A program made the translations under genes and the position numbers. Shown here one piece after another: positions 14,987 to 20,117 of a stretch of 27,212 nucleotides of DNA (positions are counted from its first letter, which is position 1; the number at the start of each line of letters is the position of its first letter). The stretch spans positions 1-27,212 of the forward strand of contig JBHJGN010000083.1 of NCBI GenBank assembly GCA_050331735.1. The letters run 5' to 3'. The DNA comes from Cyanophyceae cyanobacterium (GTDB taxonomy: Bacteria; Cyanobacteriota; Cyanobacteriia; Cyanobacteriales; JBHJGN01). Under the pieces are notes generated by a model. It worked only from the letters and a program-made list of their open reading frames with translations, ran no database searches and was not told where the DNA came from.

Positions 14987-15949
14987 ATGTTTCCTTTTTC
15001 ATTTCAGAATCACGGTATTTTAGGCATCAACGCCCGGAACCTTGATTATTTATTTCCTAACAACCCCCGTCGCCTCTACAGCTTGGCAGACTCTAAGCTA
15101 GAAACTAAAAAAATTGCCGAGAGTATTGGGGTTGCCGTTCCAGAAACTTACGGAGTGATTCGGTTTCAAAATGAGGTTAAAACCATCTCTAAGCTCGTTG
15201 GCGATCGCCAGTCTTTTGTTGTCAAACCAGCTAGAGGCAGTGGGGGAGACGGAATCTTGGTGATTAAAGAAGCGACAGCGGAAGAGTATCGGCAAGCCAG
15301 CGGTACTGTTCTCAGTCGCGACGACTTACAGTATCATCTCTACAATATCCTCGGCGGGATGTTTTCTCTCTCCGGAAGAGATGTTGTCATCATCGAAGCA
15401 GTCGTCGAGTTCGATTCGGTGTTTGATGAGATTGCCTATCAGGGAGTTCCCGATATTCGCATTATTGTCTATCATGGTGTGCCAGCAATGGCCATGCTGC
15501 GTTTACCCACGCAGGCTTCTGACGGAAAAGCTAACTTACACAGAGGCGGTGTGGGAGTGGGGATCGATCTGGCAACGGGCAAAACGACAACCGGAATTCA
15601 ATCCAATCGCTACATTAACAACCATCCTGAAACCGGTCATCCCTTGGGCGATCACCAAATTCCTGACTGGCACACTCTCCTCGAGATGGCAGCAAAATTG
15701 GGGGAAAAGACGGCCTTTAACTATCTAGGAGTCGATATCGTCCTCGATCGCCAGCAGGGACCACTGCTATTGGAAATCAACGCTCGCCCAGGGCTTTCGA
15801 TTCAAATCGCCAATGGAGAAGGGCTGATTGGCCGACTCGAAACGATTGATGCTGCCTTACCAAAGCTGACCAATGTTTCCGAAAAAATCGAGTTTGCCCA
15901 GAGGAATTTTAGCTTGCTAAACGCAGCCCTTAGAAGAAATTCCGAGTGA
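14987..15949 (+). CDS. Alpha-L-glutamate ligase-like ATP-grasp protein (RimK-related)
   Basis: GILGINARN..Y....NPR, FVVKPARGSGGDGILVI, YQGVPDIRII, SDGKANLH.GGVGVGID, YLGVDIVLD and LLEINARPGLSIQIAN. ATG at 14987 (ORF open from 14966). Confidence 0.93.
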   Translation: MFPFSFQNHGILGINARNLDYLFPNNPRRLYSLADSKLETKKIAESIGVAVPETYGVIRFQNEVKTISKLVGDRQSFVVKPARGSGGDGILVIKEATAEEYRQASGTVLSRDDLQYHLYNILGGMFSLSGRDVVIIEAVVEFDSVFDEIAYQGVPDIRIIVYHGVPAMAMLRLPTQASDGKANLHRGGVGVGIDLATGKTTTGIQSNRYINNHPETGHPLGDHQIPDWHTLLEMAAKLGEKTAFNYLGVDIVLDRQQGPLLLEINARPGLSIQIANGEGLIGRLETIDAALPKLTNVSEKIEFAQRNFSLLNAALRRNSE

Positions 15950-16180
15950 ACGTTTAGCGTGCTTGACAGTAGAAAAGTCTGTTCTCGATCAGAACGAGTC
16001 AAGCCAAACTATCTAGTCGTTTACTGAGCTAGCCGGCGATCTTCAGGCAATCTACTGAGAGGAGCAACGATAAGTTGAAGGCGATACTGGGCGATTTACG
16101 GAGGTAGCGCGAGGGTCAGCCCTCCTACAATGGAACGTGTTTTATCTGACTACGCATCCTCGTTCCTCTAGGAAATTGAC

Positions 16181-16924
16181 ATGGGCGTTACCAAAATTAA
16201 AGCAGCTATTACTTTGTCAATCTTGTTATCGAGTTGTCATGTCCTAGCAGATGACCCAGTTTTAGTCGATTATCGTTCTTCTCCAGAGCTAACGACCGAT
16301 TCAACTCACCCGGAGTCAGTGCTCACTCAAGCCGTTCCGGAAACTCCTTGTCCAGATGCTACGCCTCAAATTTTAGACGCTGCGGTTGGCTCCTTTACTG
16401 CTGCTAACACCTCTCAACGTGCCTACTTAATTGAGCTTGGCGATCGCTGTCGCGTCACTTCTCCTCGCAACACTAGCACCACAAGACTCGCTATTTTTTC
16501 CGGAACGGAGCTGATCGATCATCAAGACTTTGTTGGCTTCAACAGCATTAGAGCCGTTAAAGACAGCAATCGAGATGGGACAGATGAAATTGTCATCGAA
16601 GCAAGCTGGCTCGGTCAAGGGTATCAAACAATCTCTGCCCAGCTAATTGATATCAAGCCCGATCGCATCGCTATTCTCAAAGACTTAGAGCAAGTTTACC
16701 TAGATAACTTCGGGCTACCACAAAGCCAATATCGAGTGGCGTCCGTCATTTCTTTAAACAGTAGCTCTAGCACCGAGGGTTTTACTAGAGAAAACTATGT
16801 AGCATCTTGCTCTCAACCCACCAATCAACGTGATGCAGAATGCTCGCCGTATGAATACATCTCCTCTGGCGATTTTCCCACTCCTGATGAAATACAGAAA
16901 TTTATTAATACAGCAGATAACTAA
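16181..16924 (+). CDS. Hypothetical lipoprotein (candidate immunity protein)
   Basis: Basic N-terminus, hydrophobic core and lipobox LLSS-C. DxNxDG Ca-binding-type loop (DSNRDGTDEIVI). Four further Cys. Predicted beta-rich. No family recognised. Confidence 0.75.
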   Translation: MGVTKIKAAITLSILLSSCHVLADDPVLVDYRSSPELTTDSTHPESVLTQAVPETPCPDATPQILDAAVGSFTAANTSQRAYLIELGDRCRVTSPRNTSTTRLAIFSGTELIDHQDFVGFNSIRAVKDSNRDGTDEIVIEASWLGQGYQTISAQLIDIKPDRIAILKDLEQVYLDNFGLPQSQYRVASVISLNSSSSTEGFTRENYVASCSQPTNQRDAECSPYEYISSGDFPTPDEIQKFINTADN

Positions 16925-16961
16925 GCCCTCTGTTGCGACAAGCAATTGAAAACAACAACAA

Positions 16962-16996
16962 GCTTACAGCTAATCGCTAACGGCTAACAGCTAAAT
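16962..16996 (+). repeat. Five tandem heptamers (GCTAACA-like STRR)
   Basis: GCTTACA GCTAATC GCTAACG GCTAACA GCTAAAT. Confidence 0.7.
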
Positions 16997-17035
16997 TCAA
17001 ACCCTTGCATTAGCACTCAAAAGGAAAGGTTAATT

Positions 17036-19252
17036 GTGGTAACTCAAAAAGATTTAGTCCCGGTTCCTGGTATTGAAAACGTCAGTCAGGAATTTAAAGA
17101 TAAAGTAGTTCAAATTGCTAACGACCTTGGAACCGACCCCAATTATCTCATGGCCGTGATGAGCTTTGAAACGGATAGTACGTTTAGCCCATCGATGCAA
17201 AACTATGCTGGCAGCGGTGCTGTTGGTTTAATTCAGTTTTTGCCTTCCACCGCCGCCAGTTTAGGAACTAGCGCTGATGAGTTGGGGCAAATGTCAGCCG
17301 AGGCACAGCTAGACTTTGTTGCCAAATACCTCGAACCCTATAAAGGCAAGCTCAATACTCTCGAAGATACTTATATGGCGGTATTTACCCCGGCAGCAAT
17401 CGGGAAAGGAAAAGAACACGTCCTCTACGAACAGGGAACAACAGCCTACCGCCAGAATAACGGTCTCGACAGTGACCAGGATGGCAAAATTACGGTAGGC
17501 GAAGCCACCCAAAAAGTGAGAGACAGGCTAGAGCAAGGATGGTCCCGTCAGCAATCTCAGGCAGAATCCCTCATTCAGGGACCATCGAGCCAGTCAGCAC
17601 AACCCGTATTTAAGCACAGCGTTCCTGAACGACAGCTCGATGCTTCAAACTATCCCGCTTTTGACTCAACCGTGATTGGAAGCGGTTATTTTACGGGCGG
17701 ATTTTTTGAGCCAGACGGTCACGGTCAAAAAAGCTTTACGACCAAATACATTGCGGGCGACACCCCCGATGAGGTGCAGACCAAAGCACCAGGACGCTAC
17801 AACATCGGGGTTGATTACGTTGTCAGCGATAATCAGGTAAAAGCGCTATACGGTGGCACCGTGATTAAGGCCGGCAACGAGGGCGGGTATGGCAACCGCA
17901 TTCACGTGCAAACCGACCTCACTTATCAGTTTCAGGGTCAAGAATACCCACTCTACGCTGCCTATGCGCATCTGGCAGAAATTGACGTGAAGCCCGGTCA
18001 AGCCATTGAGCAAGGAGAGCACATCGGCATTCAGGGAAATACTGGTGCGAGTAGCGGTCCCCATGTCGATTTAGCCACCTGGATAGAGGTTAATGGGGAG
18101 AAAATTTACGTTTCGCCTAATGCGATCGACAAACAGCTCACGCAGCAGCGGCAACAAACAGGTATTGATGCCACCCTCAAGGCCACTGCGGTGACGGATG
18201 CGGCCCAAACAATTTTGACTCATTTGGGCAAAGACACCGCAGCGGGACGGGAATTTCAGGGCAACACCTACAGCTTTAGCCAGCAAGAAGGAGAGCTGAG
18301 CGTGACGAAGGGCGAAGCAGAAATTCTGCGAGTAGAAAATGGAGCTGTTACCGTTAATCAACTGTCAGATCGCGATTTGAGCAACCTATCTCGCGTTGCC
18401 TACGCACTCGATTATGAAAGACATCCCAATATCAACGGTCTCAGCGATCCTGGCTTGACTGCCTTAACCCTGGCTAATGTCGCAAGAACAGTGGCCGAAT
18501 TAGACCCAAGAAGCAGCAGGGAAGCCGGGGCATACTCGCTGCAAGGATACGATTACAATATTGAGCAACGCGGCAACGATCTGCACGTAGAAGCCAAAGA
18601 CGGACGCGGTACTATTTTAGAGATTCAAGATGGACGAGTTCACCTCAATCGAGCCACGGTTCAAGATGTGGCGGTGCTGAGCCGCACTAGCTTCGCTCAT
18701 AGCCAACAGGCAACGATGAGCTCTCCCGCTCAGGGGCAAGCAACCTTGCGCTCCGGCGATCGCGGTGAAGCTGTGCGATCGCTACAAACGCAGCTCACCG
18801 AACTTGGCTACCTAAAGGGCGACATCGACGGTCAATTTGGTCCCGAAACCACAGCCGCCGTCAAGGACTTTCAGCGCGAACACAATCTAGAGCCAGACGG
18901 CATTGTGGGACCGAAAACTTGGCAAAGCCTGGATGAGGTCAACCAGCAGCAGTCCGCTCCATCACCCCAGACCCCCTCTCTCCCCCCCGATTCCTACCTC
19001 CGCACTGCTCAGTACGTGCAAGACTCTCTCCAACGTCCCGTTTCTGGGGCAGAGCTCGATACCTACGTGGCTTTAGCCGTCCTCAACGGGACGCAAAGCG
19101 CTGAAATGGCCGCCCAGGTGGTCAGCCAAGGCCCCCAAGCCCAAGCCTTGCAGCAGAACCCAGAGAAAGCTCAGCACTACGTTCAGACCTGTTTAGAGCA
19201 GGCCAGCCAGCTCGCCGAACCATCCCCTCAAGCGGAGCCAGAACTGGGATAA
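17036..19252 (+). CDS. Multi-domain peptidoglycan hydrolase: lysozyme-like/SLT domain, atypical M23 peptidase, two internal repeats, PG_binding_1 and a Q-rich C-terminal domain
   Basis: aa 20-165: LMAVMSFET (E45), AVGLIQF and Y.QN.GLD.D.DG.IT. aa 250-362: GVDY, GYGN, YAHL and G.QGNTG.SSGPH. aa 571-632: LRSGDRG.AV..LQ..L..LGY....DG.FGP.T.AAVK.FQ....L..DGIVGP.TW. No signal peptide. Confidence 0.88.
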   Translation: MVTQKDLVPVPGIENVSQEFKDKVVQIANDLGTDPNYLMAVMSFETDSTFSPSMQNYAGSGAVGLIQFLPSTAASLGTSADELGQMSAEAQLDFVAKYLEPYKGKLNTLEDTYMAVFTPAAIGKGKEHVLYEQGTTAYRQNNGLDSDQDGKITVGEATQKVRDRLEQGWSRQQSQAESLIQGPSSQSAQPVFKHSVPERQLDASNYPAFDSTVIGSGYFTGGFFEPDGHGQKSFTTKYIAGDTPDEVQTKAPGRYNIGVDYVVSDNQVKALYGGTVIKAGNEGGYGNRIHVQTDLTYQFQGQEYPLYAAYAHLAEIDVKPGQAIEQGEHIGIQGNTGASSGPHVDLATWIEVNGEKIYVSPNAIDKQLTQQRQQTGIDATLKATAVTDAAQTILTHLGKDTAAGREFQGNTYSFSQQEGELSVTKGEAEILRVENGAVTVNQLSDRDLSNLSRVAYALDYERHPNINGLSDPGLTALTLANVARTVAELDPRSSREAGAYSLQGYDYNIEQRGNDLHVEAKDGRGTILEIQDGRVHLNRATVQDVAVLSRTSFAHSQQATMSSPAQGQATLRSGDRGEAVRSLQTQLTELGYLKGDIDGQFGPETTAAVKDFQREHNLEPDGIVGPKTWQSLDEVNQQQSAPSPQTPSLPPDSYLRTAQYVQDSLQRPVSGAELDTYVALAVLNGTQSAEMAAQVVSQGPQAQALQQNPEKAQHYVQTCLEQASQLAEPSPQAEPELG

Positions 19253-19289
19253 AGTCCGAAGGAGCAGTGACGCTAGCTAGAATAGAAGC

Positions 19290-20117
19290 ATGCTAGAACT
19301 CCACTGCCATACCACCCTTTCAGACGGAACTCTCACTCCCACCGAGCTAGTTAAAGCCGCGCAAGCAGCGGGCGTGAGGGCGTTAGCGATTACGGACCAC
19401 GATACTTTAGCCGGCTGGGACGAAGCTCACGCGGCGGCGGCCTCGACGGGGCTAGAAATTGTGCCCGGCGTTGAGCTGAGCACAGTTTACAATAATCGTT
19501 CGCTTCATATTCTCGGCTACTATCCCGATCCCGAAAAACTGCTGCCGCCGCTGCGCGATCGCGTGGAGGGACGCTACCGCCGCGCTCGGCAGATGGCGGA
19601 TAAGCTAGCCGCTTTAGGCTACCCGATCGAACTGCCGGAAATGCAGGGCATTGCGCCGGGTCGTCCTCACCTGGCGAGAGCTTTAGTGAAGGCGGGGTAC
19701 GTCCAGTCATCCCAGGAAGCCTTTGCCCGCTGGCTCGGAGATGACGGCCCCGCTTACGTCTGCTACGAGAAATTGACGGCGGCTGAAGGCATTGCGCTGC
19801 TGCGAGACTGCGGGGCAGTACCGGTGTGGGCGCACCCCTATCTGTTTCGCGGCGGCACCGTGACAGAAATTTTACCAGAGCTAGTGACGGCGGGTCTGAT
19901 GGGCTTAGAAGTCTATCACCCGTGTCATTCCCCTTCTCAGGTGCAAAAGCTTCAGAACTACTGTCGTCAGTGGCATCTAGTGGCAACAGGAGGCAGTGAC
20001 TACCACGGACCCCAGCGGGAAGCCAGCGGAAAGATCATTGATTCCCTCAATCAGCTTCAGTTGCCCCTCAATTTGCTTGCGCCTTTGCAGGTGGCAGTTA
20101 GCAGCCTCACGACTTAA
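19290..20117 (+). CDS. PHP-domain phosphoesterase (YciV/TrpH-like)
   Basis: LHCHT..SDG, AITDHDT, PGVELS, HILGY, GRPH, AHP and GGSDYHG metal-binding motifs. Confidence 0.92.
   Translation: MLELHCHTTLSDGTLTPTELVKAAQAAGVRALAITDHDTLAGWDEAHAAAASTGLEIVPGVELSTVYNNRSLHILGYYPDPEKLLPPLRDRVEGRYRRARQMADKLAALGYPIELPEMQGIAPGRPHLARALVKAGYVQSSQEAFARWLGDDGPAYVCYEKLTAAEGIALLRDCGAVPVWAHPYLFRGGTVTEILPELVTAGLMGLEVYHPCHSPSQVQKLQNYCRQWHLVATGGSDYHGPQREASGKIIDSLNQLQLPLNLLAPLQVAVSSLTT

What the first reader, a model, noticed from the sequence alone, without database searches (positions are those of the whole stretch)
16181..19252. Candidate cyanobacterial antibacterial immunity-effector pair: lipoprotein plus signal-less dual peptidoglycan hydrolase
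Seen: a lipobox-bearing, Cys-containing protein with a DxNxDG loop is encoded 111 bp upstream of a 738-aa protein. That protein has two wall-cleaving domains (lysozyme/SLT-like with E45 and GLIQF; M23-like) and a PG-binding domain, has no Sec/Tat signal, and ends in a Q-rich tail with ...AEPELG. Known: Xanthomonas bactericidal T4SS effectors such as XAC2609 have the order hydrolase - PG-binding - C-terminal secretion domain - Q-rich tail, and their Ca-binding immunity lipoprotein (XAC2610) is encoded immediately upstream. Inference: a signal-less PG hydrolase needs a dedicated export route, and no holin or phage gene lies nearby. This could be an orphan effector of a type IV or other contact-dependent system, with periplasmic immunity. 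I do not know of such a system described in cyanobacteria.
Basis: partly seen in the sequence, partly recalled or inferred. Interest (0 to 1): 0.85.

Follow-up and report, generated by a model that had tools for sequence, protein, structure and literature searches.

The report
Signal-less wall hydrolase with inhibitor lipoprotein
A cyanobacterium encodes a cell-wall-cutting enzyme that has no export signal next to a lipoprotein predicted to plug its active site, and the enzyme's tail recurs on one other protein, encoded inside the genome's type IV secretion gene cluster, so this looks like a weapon-and-antidote pair of a kind not yet described in cyanobacteria.

Summary
ORF A (16181-16924) is a lipobox protein with no family hit. 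ORF B (17036-19252) is a 738-aa, signal-less protein with a lytic-transglycosylase domain, an M23-like domain, a PG-binding domain and a Gln-rich tail. One correction: the M23-like domain lacks two canonical zinc ligands (NIGVD, HVD).

Four new results bear on the reading.
- A complex prediction places ORF A loops in the lysozyme active site, touching E45 and GLIQF. Score 0.79, best control 0.14.
- ORF A-like genes sit next to lysozyme-domain hydrolases in at least four other lineages. Most family members are unlinked, and the domain also occurs fused to kinases.
- The last ~95 residues of ORF B recur in one other protein of this genome. That protein follows a signal-peptide protein and lies inside a type IV secretion cluster (coupling protein, VirB4-like ATPase; a VirB10-like gene on another contig). 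No relaxase was found with three Pfam families.
- Relatives of the hydrolase almost never carry signal peptides and are rarely in phage contexts.

Best reading (about 0.45): a T4SS-delivered antibacterial hydrolase with a periplasmic immunity lipoprotein. This is analogous to Xanthomonas X-Tfe/X-Tfi, with no homology detected in the tail or the hydrolase. Nothing has been tested experimentally.

The parts
16181..16924 (+). ORF A: 247-aa lipobox protein, predicted partial beta-propeller; candidate periplasmic inhibitor (immunity protein) of the ORF B lysozyme domain
   Evidence: ORF. No family hit. Model pLDDT 87.2, pTM 0.83, all-beta. Family of 503 representative clusters. Predicted complex with ORF B residues 1-180 scores 0.79 against a best control of 0.14.
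16181..16237 (+). Signal peptide with lipobox L-S-S-C19
   Evidence: Read directly from the translation. No signal-peptide predictor was available. Relatives carry either signal-peptidase-I type leaders (P0122-P0127) or lipoboxes (L121 FAAC, L126 LNAC).
16457..16474 (+). ORF A loop, residues 93-98 (TSPRNT); R96 is predicted to touch the catalytic E45 of ORF B
   Evidence: Contact list (1:45 with 2:96, expected error 1.0 A). Residues.
16562..16588 (+). D128-x-N-x-D-G133-x-x-E136 loop, resembling an FG-GAP/integrin calcium loop
   Evidence: D128, G133 and E136 are nearly invariant in 65 family members. Integrin alpha propellers are among the fold matches. Calcium binding was not tested.
16601..16636 (+). 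ORF A loop, residues 141-152 (ASWLGQGYQTIS), predicted to insert into the substrate groove of ORF B
   Evidence: The lowest-error contacts link ORF A residues 144-148 to ORF B residues 66-72, 98 and 116-120. S142, G145, Q146 and G147 are invariant in alignment A1.
16925..17035 (+). 111-bp spacer with a Shine-Dalgarno-like GGAAAGG (17023-17029)
   Evidence: Sequence. No + strand terminator-like or promoter-like site between the genes. Co-transcription is inferred, not shown.
17036..19252 (+). ORF B: 738-aa signal-less multidomain peptidoglycan hydrolase; candidate secreted effector
17048..17554 (+). Lytic-transglycosylase/lysozyme-like domain (residues 5-173) with E45 and GLIQF 64-68
   Evidence: PDB 9udh_A at E 5e-42. 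phrog_4928 at 8e-53 and phrog_196 'baseplate hub' at 1.6e-46. SLT at 27 bits. 45-70% identical to the same domain in more than 100 listed proteins, the named ones from Acidobacteriota/Pyrinomonadaceae.
17720..18145 (+). M23-like domain (about residues 229-370) with non-canonical metal-site motifs NIGVD and HVD
   Evidence: Pfam at 58.9 bits. Motifs. P0002 and P0005 carry the same variant, while P0003 and P0004 have the canonical HKGID and HLH.
18233..18730 (+). Two copies of a repeat of roughly 60-80 residues of unknown function (residues 400-565), shared with P0002-P0004
   Evidence: Smith-Waterman score 75, against shuffles of 25.6 +/- 5.0; 0 of 500 shuffles reach it. Alignment A3. BLASTP of the two halves found nothing.
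18761..18931 (+). PG_binding_1 domain (residues 576-632)
   Evidence: Pfam at 1.8e-22. Matches to PDB PG-binding domains.
18956..19249 (+). C-terminal domain (residues 641-738), helical, with a Gln-rich tail ending EPELG; candidate recognition signal for the type IV coupling protein
   Evidence: Shared only with G000:C31:107823-108698 (E 4e-8; 3e-9) and with metagenome protein P0002. The C31 protein lies inside the T4SS cluster. Not found in 300 other genomes of the order.

Best explanation
ORF B is a cytoplasmically made peptidoglycan hydrolase. ORF A is its cognate periplasmic inhibitor, an immunity lipoprotein.

Predicted mechanism: ORF A, a partial beta-propeller, pushes two loops (residues 93-98 and 141-152) into the catalytic cleft of the N-terminal lytic-transglycosylase domain. 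These loops cover E45 and the GLIQF motif. This would protect the producer's own wall from enzyme that leaks out or is delivered by kin.

Inferred export route: the roughly 95-residue helical C-terminal domain with its Gln-rich tail is recognised by the genome's single type IV coupling protein. ORF B is then exported through a relaxase-less, cyanobacterial-type (MPF_C-like) type IV secretion machine, into or onto neighbouring bacteria, whose wall it cuts.

A second substrate would be the 291-aa protein with the same C-terminal domain. It carries a different, toxin-like N-terminal domain, follows its own signal-peptide protein, and has been inserted into the T4SS locus itself.

Shown by computation: the domain content, the lack of a signal peptide, the predicted complex, the shared tail, and the presence and layout of the T4SS genes.

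Inferred only: inhibition, recognition by the coupling protein, export, and an antibacterial role.
For: 1. Binding. The predicted complex of ORF B 1-180 with ORF A 25-247 scored 0.76, 0.79 and 0.79 in three runs, against a best control of 0.14. The runs agree in at least 67% of contacts and the partner pLDDT is at least 78. That mark was reached by 116 of 157 solved complexes and 2 of 215 mismatched pairs; these counts hold only roughly, because my own alignments were used. The interface includes ORF B residues 44-49 (E45), 62-72 (GLIQF) and 116-121.

2. Recurrent adjacency. ORF A-like genes lie immediately downstream, on the same strand, of lysozyme-domain hydrolases in L121/L122, in L126/L127 (4 of 109 loci), and in G712 and G713. 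All four of these neighbours that were read have lipoboxes or signal peptides. L121 is an array of signal-less multidomain hydrolases interleaved with small secreted proteins.

3. Fold. ORF A is a partial beta-propeller. It matches the lysozyme inhibitor PliI-Ah at Foldseek probability 1.00 and TMt 0.52, and at VIA Z 7.0, rmsd 3.2 A, 111 of 122 residues. The literature describes X-Tfi XAC2610, Tsi1 and PliI-Ah as beta-propeller-topology inhibitors that insert a loop into the active site (PMC10933484, passages read).

4. No Sec route. ORF B and its relatives lack signal peptides. Of 60 relatives with complete 5' ends, 5 were flagged by a crude rule, and in all 5 the hydrophobic window lies at or within the start of the lysozyme domain.

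5. Shared tail and T4SS.
- The C-terminal domain occurs in only two proteins of the genome.
- The other protein lies between a VirB4-like ATPase and VirB6/VirB8-like genes, 4.8 kb from a coupling protein (TrwB_AAD_bind 2e-27, T4SS-DNA_transf 5e-24, TraG-D_C 6e-22).
- A TrbI/VirB10 homologue and two further conserved cluster genes lie on contig C8.
- In 11 relatives' loci the order p199-p122-VirB4L-p418 is kept, and none has the p150/p291 pair (3 clusters read in full). The pair is therefore an insertion.

6. No relaxase of PF03432, PF08751 or PF03389 was found in a genome that is 99.98% complete by marker genes.

7. No T6SS TssC and no contractile sheath were found.
Against: - The tail has no detectable sequence similarity to any solved chain. 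[quoted passage not shown]
- The tail was found in no other genome of the order (0 of 300) and in no other protein by word search. Its link to secretion therefore rests on two proteins in one genome plus one metagenome protein.
- PF03135, the standard VirB4 model, does not match in this genome. The 952-aa ATPase is called VirB4-like from a weak DUF87 hit, Walker motifs read by eye, and synteny.
- ORF A-like genes are usually not next to hydrolases: 0 of 19 loci. At genome level there is no enrichment: both families occur in 4 of 101 genomes, where 5.1 are expected. Of 5 genomes holding ORF A-like genes, 0 hold the lysozyme domain.
- The ORF A domain is also the C-terminal module of Ser/Thr kinase-trypsin fusions (7 of 20 scanned), trypsin-only fusions (3), a TIR fusion and a hydrolase fusion. 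It is therefore not dedicated to immunity.
- Beta-propeller blade matches at Z 7-9.5 are common and non-specific.
- The lysozyme domain also occurs in phage virion proteins (L134).
- In two related cyanobacteria it is a membrane-anchored protein next to a membrane-anchored M23 gene. This shows that a housekeeping or machine-assembly use exists.
Confidence: 0.45

Rival explanations
1. The two genes are a hydrolase-inhibitor (effector-immunity) pair, but export does not use the T4SS. ORF B would leave the cell by a type I (ABC/HlyD/TolC) exporter that reads a C-terminal signal, by leakage or lysis of a subpopulation, or by an unknown route. The shared tail would serve some other purpose, such as oligomerisation or wall targeting.
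For: The evidence for binding and adjacency is the same as for the best explanation. Relatives of the hydrolase in Acidobacteriota and other metagenome loci sit among housekeeping genes, with no T4SS or T6SS family nearby in the 25 long loci scanned. These relatives must therefore use an unlinked or different route. One locus (L119) has HlyD_3, ABC_tran and FtsX genes just upstream of a hydrolase array. XAC2609 itself reaches the periplasm independently of its T4SS (PMC10933484 passages).
Against: This does not explain why the only other carrier of the tail is inserted in the T4SS locus behind its own secreted partner. No RTX or GG repeats, typical of many type I substrates, were seen in the Pfam scan. 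No exporter gene lies in the window.
Confidence: 0.25
2. ORF B works on the producer's own wall. It would be a T4SS-associated or general remodelling enzyme, a functional analogue of VirB1 that opens the sacculus for the machine or during growth. ORF A would be a regulator that keeps it in check, not an immunity protein against attack.
For: In two cyanobacteria of the same order, the closest lysozyme-domain relatives (55% identity) are small membrane-anchored proteins encoded directly after membrane-anchored M23 peptidases. This is a lysozyme-plus-M23 set that looks like a resident wall tool. MPF_C systems have no recognised VirB1 homologue (PMC4027160 passages). ORF A-like domains on kinases suggest a sensing or regulatory use.
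Against: ORF B has neither a membrane anchor nor a signal peptide. G083 has the anchored pair but gave no VirB4-like match with this query. A tight active-site plug encoded alongside the enzyme, several catalytic and binding modules, a variable architecture across relatives and a patchy distribution (3 same-order genomes with a match) all fit a weapon better than a housekeeping enzyme.
Confidence: 0.15
3. ORF B is a remnant of a phage tail or virion lysin, or an endolysin, stranded in the chromosome. ORF A is an unrelated neighbour.
For: The N-terminal domain hits the phage families phrog_4928 and phrog_196 'baseplate hub' strongly, and the PG-binding and M23 parts hit endolysin and tape-measure families. 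PDB 9k2v_E is a phage 'internal protein'. L134 is a T7-like virion module with this domain at the end of an 876-aa protein.
Against: No phage family was found in the whole 27-kb contig. Only 1 of 25 long relatives' loci scanned is phage. The reading frame is intact, and a 58%-identical full-length orthologue exists. The predicted ORF A complex and the recurrent adjacency argue against a chance neighbour.
Confidence: 0.05

Closest known systems
[quoted passage not shown]
   Same: The layout matches: a signal-less PG hydrolase, then a PG-binding domain, then a C-terminal domain of about 100-120 residues with a Gln-rich tail. The immunity protein has a lipobox and is encoded next to the effector. 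It has a beta-propeller-type fold and is predicted to insert a loop at the catalytic Glu. Effector genes lie both inside and away from the T4SS locus, and recognition is by the coupling protein (PMC10933484 and PMC8740702, passages read).
   Different: The hydrolase is a 9udh-like lytic transglycosylase plus an M23-like domain, not GH19. The tail shows no sequence match to any solved chain and is probably all-helical. The machine is of the cyanobacterial VirB4 lineage, not the Xanthomonadales VirB/D4 type. ORF A shows no sequence similarity to any solved chain. Nothing here has been tested experimentally.
PliI-Ah (periplasmic inhibitor of i-type lysozyme, PDB 3od9) and Tsi1 (T6SS immunity protein)
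   Same: Small periplasmic beta-propeller-like proteins that block a wall hydrolase by inserting a loop into its active site. PliI-Ah is a structural match of the ORF A model: Foldseek probability 1.00, TMt 0.52; VIA Z 7.0, rmsd 3.2 A, 111 of 122 residues.
   Different: Identity is 17-18%. ORF A is twice as long. The match sits among hundreds of generic propeller-blade matches of equal or higher Z. Tsi1 and XAC2610 were not among the rows listed.
MPF_C class type IV secretion systems of cyanobacteria (model: Nostoc sp. PCC 7120 alpha plasmid; Guglielmini et al. 2014, PMC4027160)
   Same: A compact locus with VirB3-, VirB4-, VirB6- and VirB8-like genes, a VirB10/TrbI homologue and a coupling protein. 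The VirB4-like protein is found in 94 of 300 other genomes of the order.
   Different: Here no relaxase of three families was found. The locus is split over two contigs. It carries an inserted pair of a secreted protein and a tail-bearing protein. The paper reports no experimental work on MPF_C function and no protein substrates (passages read). The MPF_C profiles themselves were not available to me.
PDB 9udh 'lytic transglycosidase' and the phage virion lysozyme domain (phrog_196, phrog_4928; PDB 9k2v chain E 'internal protein')
   Same: The same catalytic domain (E 5e-42, about 50% identity over 155 residues) with the conserved Glu and GLIQF.
   Different: Those are a single-domain chain and the C-terminal modules of large virion proteins. 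ORF B is chromosomal, multidomain and paired with an inhibitor. No paper citing 9UDH was found.
Signal-less SLT-PG_binding_1-Peptidase_M74 proteins of Pyrinomonadaceae (Acidobacteriota), annotated 'penicillin-insensitive murein endopeptidase'
   Same: The same N-terminal lysozyme domain at 55-70% identity, the same lack of a signal peptide, and a modular build of hydrolase plus PG-binding plus endopeptidase.
   Different: A different endopeptidase (M74), and no repeats or C-terminal tail. No ORF A-like neighbour was seen in the loci examined, and the contexts are housekeeping. Their export route and function are also unknown.

Membership tests
X-Tfe effectors of X-T4SS (Xanthomonadales type) | C-terminal XVIPCD: about 120 residues with conserved motifs, an alpha-alpha-beta-beta-beta fold, then a Gln-rich tail | tested here: not met
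   A profile of the tail against all PDB sequences found only one unrelated chain, at E 0.82. The PDB should include the XVIPCD NMR structure reported in PMC8740702, but I did not verify that it is in the copy searched. The model is all-helical but low-confidence, pLDDT 49.5. A Gln-rich tail is present (16.3% Q).
X-Tfe effectors of X-T4SS (Xanthomonadales type) | Direct binding of the C-terminal domain to the all-alpha domain of the coupling protein, and T4SS-dependent translocation | not tested
X-Tfe/X-Tfi-like effector-immunity pair (functional class) | A signal-less wall hydrolase encoded next to a periplasmic (lipobox) protein that binds and blocks its active site | tested here: met
   Met at the level of prediction only. 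No signal peptide. Lipobox by inspection. Predicted complex 0.79 against a best control of 0.14, with an interface over E45 and GLIQF.
Lytic transglycosylase / lysozyme-like domain (Pfam SLT clan; PDB 9udh type) | Catalytic Glu in the conserved E-[ST] context, and family-level sequence match | tested here: met
   SLT scores 27 bits against a cut-off of 21.3. 9udh_A at E 5e-42. E45 is invariant in 47 sequences.
Peptidase M23 (LytM/lysostaphin type) | The zinc-site motifs HxxxD and HxH | tested here: not met
   The Pfam score is above its cut-off (58.9 against 28.7). However, the motifs read NIGVD and HVD, whereas P0003 and P0004 have HKGID and HLH in the same columns. What the motifs do is recalled knowledge of the family. 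Activity is uncertain.
PliI / Tsi1 / X-Tfi structural class of wall-hydrolase inhibitors | A beta-propeller-like topology with an inhibitory loop entering the enzyme's active site | tested here: inconclusive
   PliI-Ah matches at Z 7.0 (111 of 122 residues), but generic propellers score up to 9.5. Loop insertion is predicted, not observed.
Type IV secretion system, MPF_C class | VirB4-family ATPase, coupling protein, and VirB3/6/8/9/10 homologues in compact loci restricted to cyanobacteria | tested here: inconclusive
   The coupling protein is clear. TrbI/VirB10 scores 39.3 bits against a cut-off of 35. The 952-aa ATPase has only a weak DUF87 hit and no PF03135 match, but it is conserved with the same gene order in 94 of 300 genomes of the order. 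VirB3/6/8 likeness rests on size, membrane topology read by eye, and order. The MPF_C profiles were not available.
Conjugative element | A relaxase encoded in the genome or near the T4SS | tested here: not met
   PF03432, PF08751 and PF03389 gave no match in G000. Other relaxase families were not searched, and the assembly has 99 contigs.
Phage lysis or tail module | Neighbouring phage structural, holin or lysis genes | tested here: not met
   No phage family was found in the window ORFs of 120 aa or more that were scanned. The gaps flanking the pair are too short for a gene.
Type VI secretion or contractile injection system effector | TssC or sheath genes in the genome | tested here: not met
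   PF05943 and PF04984 gave no match in G000, and the control genomes rang.

The most novel reading that the evidence does not exclude
Relaxase-less MPF_C-type type IV secretion machines of cyanobacteria are protein-delivery weapons. This genome shows their first candidate substrates: two unrelated toxic modules, a multidomain wall hydrolase and a TseH/Rhs-tip-like domain. Both carry a new helical C-terminal recognition domain with a Gln-rich tail, and each is paired with a periplasmic antidote. The ORF A-type propeller domain would be a widespread inhibitor or sensor of this lysozyme family, including as the outer domain of Ser/Thr kinases that could sense attack.
Probability: 0.35. Interest if true: 0.85.

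Novelty: new variant of a known kind. Interest (0 to 1): 0.72.

Why it matters
I found no description of contact-dependent antibacterial weapons or effector-immunity pairs in cyanobacteria. This rests on two literature searches. A five-term full-text search returned four papers, all on type VI or contractile injection systems. The MPF_C search returned five papers, none on substrates.

Cyanobacterial MPF_C type IV secretion systems are common: a VirB4-like gene was found in 94 of 300 genomes sampled from this order. According to the paper that defined them (PMC4027160, passages read), they have no experimentally known function.

If the shared C-terminal domain is a coupling-protein signal, it gives that machine a testable function and a handle for finding more substrates. 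It would also show that the weapon architecture worked out in Xanthomonas arose again with different parts.

Separately, the work defines two uncharacterised families:
- a signal-less lysozyme-domain hydrolase family that is abundant among the Acidobacteriota-labelled proteins and MAGs found here;
- a propeller domain of about 200 residues that is predicted to inhibit it.

Tried and rejected
- Word-index search with the tail alone, against longer proteins: only the query itself came back. This is weak evidence, as the tool says.
- Profile of the tail in 300 other genomes of the order: no match.
- First metagenome scan, with P0003: no relative found. The allowed second scan used alignment A3.
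Whether they have an ORF A-like neighbour is therefore unknown.
- ORF A profile against PDB sequences: nothing at E up to 1.
- Tail profile against PDB sequences: one chance hit.
- Tail structure model: pLDDT 49.5, too poor for a fold search.
- XAC2610 (4QTQ) and Tsi1 (3VPJ) did not appear among the rows listed by Foldseek or VIA-align. That does not exclude them.
- Paper search for '9UDH': none found.
- PADLOC for ORF A, ORF B, p150 and p291: none.
- BLASTP of the two halves of ORF B's repeat region: no alignment. Smith-Waterman with shuffles does detect the repeat.
- Promoter and terminator scan of 15800-19500: nothing on the + strand, counts at chance level.
- Sequencing runs: no RNA holder is listed. 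The only holder of the stretch is a DNA run that may be the source of the assembly.
- Earlier-findings look-ups by words and by the lysozyme sequence: nothing. The genome-wide look-up returned three unrelated notes.
- The idea that the membrane-anchored lysozyme/M23 pair of G083 and G212 belongs to their T4SS: G083 gave no VirB4-like match, and in G212 the two lie on different contigs.
- Genome-level co-occurrence of the two families in one Acidobacteriota family: no enrichment, 4 observed against 5.1 expected.

Full report
**What is there**

The window is a whole 27,212-base contig (C83) of a 5.57-Mb genome in 99 contigs, 99.98% complete by marker genes. Two same-strand ORFs match the finding. 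ORF A is 16181-16924, 247 aa. ORF B is 17036-19252, 738 aa with a GTG start. They are separated by 111 bp, with a GGAAAGG six bases before the GTG.

The neighbours are ordinary chromosomal genes:
- upstream, a retropepsin-like RloA, an RloB-like inactive-transglutaminase membrane protein and a RimK-like ATP-grasp;
- downstream, a PHP phosphoesterase, a P450 and an alpha/beta hydrolase;
- elsewhere on the contig, RNase PH, SelO, DUF3747-SLH, a multicopper oxidase and others.

No phage, holin or secretion family appears in the window ORFs of 120 aa or more that I scanned. The gaps around the pair are 232, 111 and 38 bp, which leaves no room for another gene.

**ORF B**

Pfam finds three domains: SLT at 29-112 (27 bits), Peptidase_M23 at 256-349 (58.9 bits) and PG_binding_1 at 576-632 (79.7 bits).

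The N-terminal domain is much better defined than the weak SLT score suggests:
- it matches PDB 9udh_A, 'lytic transglycosidase', at E 5e-42 over residues 15-169;
- it matches the phage families phrog_4928 (8e-53) and phrog_196 'baseplate hub' (1.6e-46);
- E45 and GLIQF (64-68) are invariant in 47 aligned sequences.

The M23-like domain is atypical. ORF B reads NIGVD and HVD where relatives P0003 and P0004 have HKGID and HLH. P0002 and P0005 carry the same variant. From what I recall of LytM-type enzymes, these positions supply two of the three zinc ligands. The domain may therefore be inactive or use a different site.

Residues 400-565 hold two copies of a repeat of unknown function. The Smith-Waterman score is 75, against 25.6 +/- 5.0 for shuffles, and 0 of 500 shuffles reach it. 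BLASTP did not detect the repeat.

Residues 641-738 form a further region with 16.3% Gln, ending AEPELG.

There is no N-terminal hydrophobic segment. P0002-P0004 start at the same position as ORF B.

**ORF A**

ORF A has no hit in Pfam, NCBIfam, PHROGs, PADLOC or PDB sequences. Its N-terminus has a plausible lipobox, L-S-S-C19, by inspection.

A profile search of 1.84 billion representative proteins found 503 relatives at E up to 1e-3, of which 43 are at 1e-30 or better. I scanned 20 of them with Pfam:
- 7 are Ser/Thr kinases that carry this domain at their C-terminus, 6 of these with a trypsin-like domain in between;
- 3 are trypsin-like fusions;
- 1 is a TIR fusion;
- 1 is a dienelactone-hydrolase/S9 fusion;
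- 8 have no other domain.

It is therefore a general extracytoplasmic domain, not a family dedicated to one job.

With a 65-sequence alignment, AlphaFold gives a confident all-beta model (pLDDT 87.2, pTM 0.83). Structure searches find propeller blades:
- DDB1, up to Z 9.5;
- integrin alpha FG-GAP propellers;
- the periplasmic lysozyme inhibitor PliI-Ah, at Foldseek probability 1.00 and TMt 0.52, and at VIA Z 7.0, rmsd 3.2 A, 111 of 122 residues.

These Z values are in the range the tool calls common. The fold is consistent with the propeller-type inhibitor class that the literature describes for XAC2610, Tsi1 and PliI-Ah (PMC10933484, passages read), but it does not prove membership.

**Do the two proteins bind?**

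- The scores were 0.76, 0.79 and 0.79, and the best of three controls was 0.14.
- The runs agree in at least 67% of contacts, and the partner pLDDT is at least 78.
- The tool states that this mark was reached by 116 of 157 solved complexes and by 2 of 215 mismatched pairs. These counts hold only roughly, because my own alignments were used.

The interface covers ORF B residues 44-49 (including E45), 62-72 (GLIQF) and 116-121. On the ORF A side it covers residues 93-98 (R96 against E45), 141-152 (the invariant S142, G145, Q146 and G147 loop) and 177-180. This is an active-site plug. I know of no solved complex of this lysozyme type with an inhibitor, so a pass from memory of a known structure seems unlikely. 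It remains a prediction.

**Is the pairing conserved?**

Only partly.
- ORF A's closest relatives are 19 genes in Pyrinomonadaceae/Acidobacteriota MAGs. None has any ORF B segment within 8 kb (0 of 19).
- 0 of 5 of those genomes hold the lysozyme domain at all.
- Among 109 loci holding the lysozyme domain, 4 have an ORF A-like gene immediately downstream on the same strand. The 109 are 29 loci from the phylum search with only 1.5-kb flanks, plus 80 metagenome loci. The 4 are L121 and the near-identical L122, and L126 and the near-identical L127, so two independent cases. Both neighbours have lipoboxes.
- In a sample of 101 genomes of one Acidobacteriota family, 27 hold the lysozyme domain, 19 hold an ORF A-like domain and 4 hold both, against 5.1 expected if the two were independent. 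The 27 include the unpublished genomes G648 and G629, counted only as present. Two of the four (G712, G713) have the genes about 2 kb apart on the same strand. The other two are kinase fusions on other contigs.

There is therefore no genome-wide correlation. Adjacency does recur in four lineages besides this one, for a domain family that is very rare overall.

L121 is instructive. It is a run of signal-less multidomain hydrolases interleaved with small signal-peptide or lipobox proteins, and the ORF A-like domain is fused to a copy of one of those small proteins.

**The hydrolase family**

Of 158 relatives found by word search, only P0002 is full-length (58% identity, 98% coverage). P0003 and P0004 share 77% of the length, with a different domain order and no tail. 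The rest of the 120 listed share only the N-terminal domain, at 45-70% identity, mostly combined with PG_binding_1 and Peptidase_M74.

In 80 metagenome loci I found 66 hydrolase ORFs, 60 of them with complete 5' ends. A crude hydrophobicity rule flagged 5. In all 5 the hydrophobic window lies at or within the start of the lysozyme domain, not in an N-terminal leader.

I ran Pfam on the neighbours in 25 of the 27 loci of 7 kb or longer. L125 and L127, near-identical to L126, were left out. The contexts are housekeeping. Only L134 has phage hallmarks (nozzle protein, T7 gp14), and there the domain ends an 876-aa virion protein. No T4SS or T6SS family was seen.

Within the window's own order, only three genomes had a match to the lysozyme domain (G083, G212 and, weakly, G196). 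In G083 and G212 it is a 217-222-aa membrane-anchored protein directly after a membrane-anchored M23 gene.

**The export question**

The genome gave no match to the standard VirB4 model, to TssC or to a contractile sheath. However, the tail of ORF B (641-734) matches one other protein of the genome, at G000:C31:107823-108698 (E 4e-8). A six-frame search finds only these two carriers. The alignment, which also includes P0002, runs to the very C-terminus: EPELG, EPEMRLE and QPEMVLG.

That second protein is 291 aa. It has no signal peptide and no Pfam hit, and it follows a 150-aa signal-peptide protein. This is the same layout as ORF A and ORF B.

It also lies inside a type IV secretion cluster. 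In order, the cluster holds:
- a coupling protein on the opposite strand (TrwB_AAD_bind 2e-27, T4SS-DNA_transf 5e-24, TraG-D_C 6e-22);
- a 199-aa membrane protein;
- a 122-aa VirB3-sized membrane protein;
- a 952-aa ATPase, with Walker motifs read by eye and a weak DUF87 hit;
- the 150-aa and 291-aa pair;
- two secreted proteins;
- a 418-aa polytopic, VirB6-like protein;
- a 252-aa bitopic, VirB8-like protein.

Homologues of the remaining conserved cluster genes of relatives lie on contig C8. They include a TrbI/VirB10 protein at 39.3 bits against a cut-off of 35.

The 952-aa ATPase has relatives in 94 of 300 other genomes of the order. In 11 of their loci the order p199-p122-ATPase-(about 1 kb)-p418 is kept, and none holds the 150/291 pair. 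Three clusters were read in full. In this genome the pair is therefore an insertion into the machine's locus.

No relaxase of PF03432, PF08751 or PF03389 was found.

This matches the published description of cyanobacteria-only MPF_C systems, for which the defining paper reports no experimental work (PMC4027160, passages read). I treat that as a lead, not as evidence.

The N-terminal domain of the 291-aa protein has only weak leads:
- Atlas neighbours include TseH-like, DUF3750, YD-shell-tip and eCIS-core clusters, at scores of 0.89-0.93;
- there are faint matches in 4 of 300 genomes, in open frames of 159, 407, 893 and 1563 aa.

**Weighing it**

The hydrolase-inhibitor pairing is the best-supported step; I put it at about 0.75. 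The link between the tail and the T4SS is circumstantial but specific. There are only two carriers in the genome, both are signal-less, both are preceded by a secreted partner, and one sits inside the T4SS locus.

Against the link:
- the tail is not a detectable XVIPCD, and its low-confidence model is all-helical;
- it was found in no other genome of the order;
- relatives of the hydrolase in other phyla clearly manage without a linked T4SS.

I put the full reading, a T4SS-delivered antibacterial effector with periplasmic immunity, at about 0.45. The rivals are:
- the same pair with another export route, 0.25;
- a self-directed or machine-assembly hydrolase with a regulator, 0.15;
- a phage remnant, 0.05.

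The remainder covers unrelated neighbours.

**Comparison and novelty**

The system works like Xanthomonas X-Tfe/X-Tfi. It shares the signal-less hydrolase, the PG-binding domain, the C-terminal domain with a Gln-rich tail, the adjacent lipobox inhibitor and the coupling protein. It fails the sequence test for the defining XVIPCD, it uses a different hydrolase, and it uses a T4SS of another class. I therefore file it as a new variant of a known kind, not as a member.

My literature searches found no description of such a system in cyanobacteria. These searches cover open-access full text only. No supplements were consulted.

Noticed in passing
G000:C31:101290-112815 (L139:2288-13819) and G000:C8:51370-54840 (L157:5371-8841): A relaxase-less type IV secretion gene set split over two contigs. 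C31 holds the coupling protein, a 952-aa VirB4-like ATPase, and VirB3/6/8-like genes. C8 holds a TrbI/VirB10 homologue and two more conserved genes. The standard VirB4 Pfam model does not detect the ATPase.
   Followed up: yes
L139:8326-9699 (G000:C31:107325-108698): A 150-aa signal-peptide protein plus a 291-aa signal-less protein, inserted after the VirB4-like gene. The 291-aa protein has ORF B's C-terminal domain and an N-terminal domain with weak toxin-like leads (TseH-like, DUF3750, Rhs-tip). This is a candidate second effector-immunity pair.
   Followed up: partly
L121:1-6341 (metagenome contig): An array of signal-less multidomain wall hydrolases, interleaved with small signal-peptide or lipobox proteins. 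One hydrolase is LysM, an M15-like region and an SLT-like region (read by eye; Pfam found nothing). The other is LysM, the lysozyme domain, PG-binding and an M15-like region. One of the small proteins is fused to an ORF A-like domain. It looks like a multi-effector, multi-immunity island.
   Followed up: partly
P0132, P0134, P0140, P0141, P0184, P0188, P0219 (about 770-840 aa): The ORF A-like propeller domain forms the C-terminal, presumably extracytoplasmic, module of Ser/Thr protein kinases, usually after a trypsin-like domain. If the domain binds this lysozyme family, these kinases could be sensors of wall attack.
   Followed up: no
window:17801-17815 and 18062-18070 (ORF B residues 256-260 and 343-345): An M23-like domain with NxxxD and HxD in place of HxxxD and HxH. 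The variant is conserved in P0002 and P0005, so it is a subfamily with a changed metal site rather than random decay.
   Followed up: partly
family f35 of the same phylum (genomes of about 1.7-2.3 Mb): The lysozyme domain occurs in most sampled genomes of this small-genome family. 116 of 225 genomes in the pooled non-listed families have a match. There are often two oppositely oriented copies within about 3 kb (for example G151:C9:27409-27855 and 30364-30834). The context was not examined.
   Followed up: no
L028 (G083:C29:133739-137200) and L029 (G212:C10:37321-40764): In two cyanobacteria of the same order, a membrane-anchored M23 peptidase gene is directly followed (with an 82-aa ORF between them in G083) by a membrane-anchored lysozyme-domain gene (55% identical to ORF B's domain), among small membrane-protein genes. 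G212's copy contains a TGA.
   Followed up: partly
window:12613-15949: A three-gene set: a retropepsin-like RloA-type peptidase, an inactive-transglutaminase/7TM RloB-like protein and a RimK-like alpha-L-glutamate ligase. NCBIfam names these 'osmotic stress tolerance' genes. The set lies directly upstream of ORF A, with no evident link to the pair.
   Followed up: no
window:18001-20000: G+C rises to 0.54-0.59 over the 3' half of ORF B and the PHP gene, against 0.43-0.50 over most of the contig. This is compatible with foreign origin but was not analysed further.
   Followed up: no
L095, L096, L099, L113: A subgroup of larger hydrolases (SLT plus muramidase, amidase_2 or VanY, with PG-binding domains, up to 1105 aa). 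In L095, L099 and L113 it shares a conserved context with an Amidohydro_2 gene, and in L095 and L113 also a sigma-54 activator. L096 was grouped by its N-terminus and neighbour size only.
   Followed up: no
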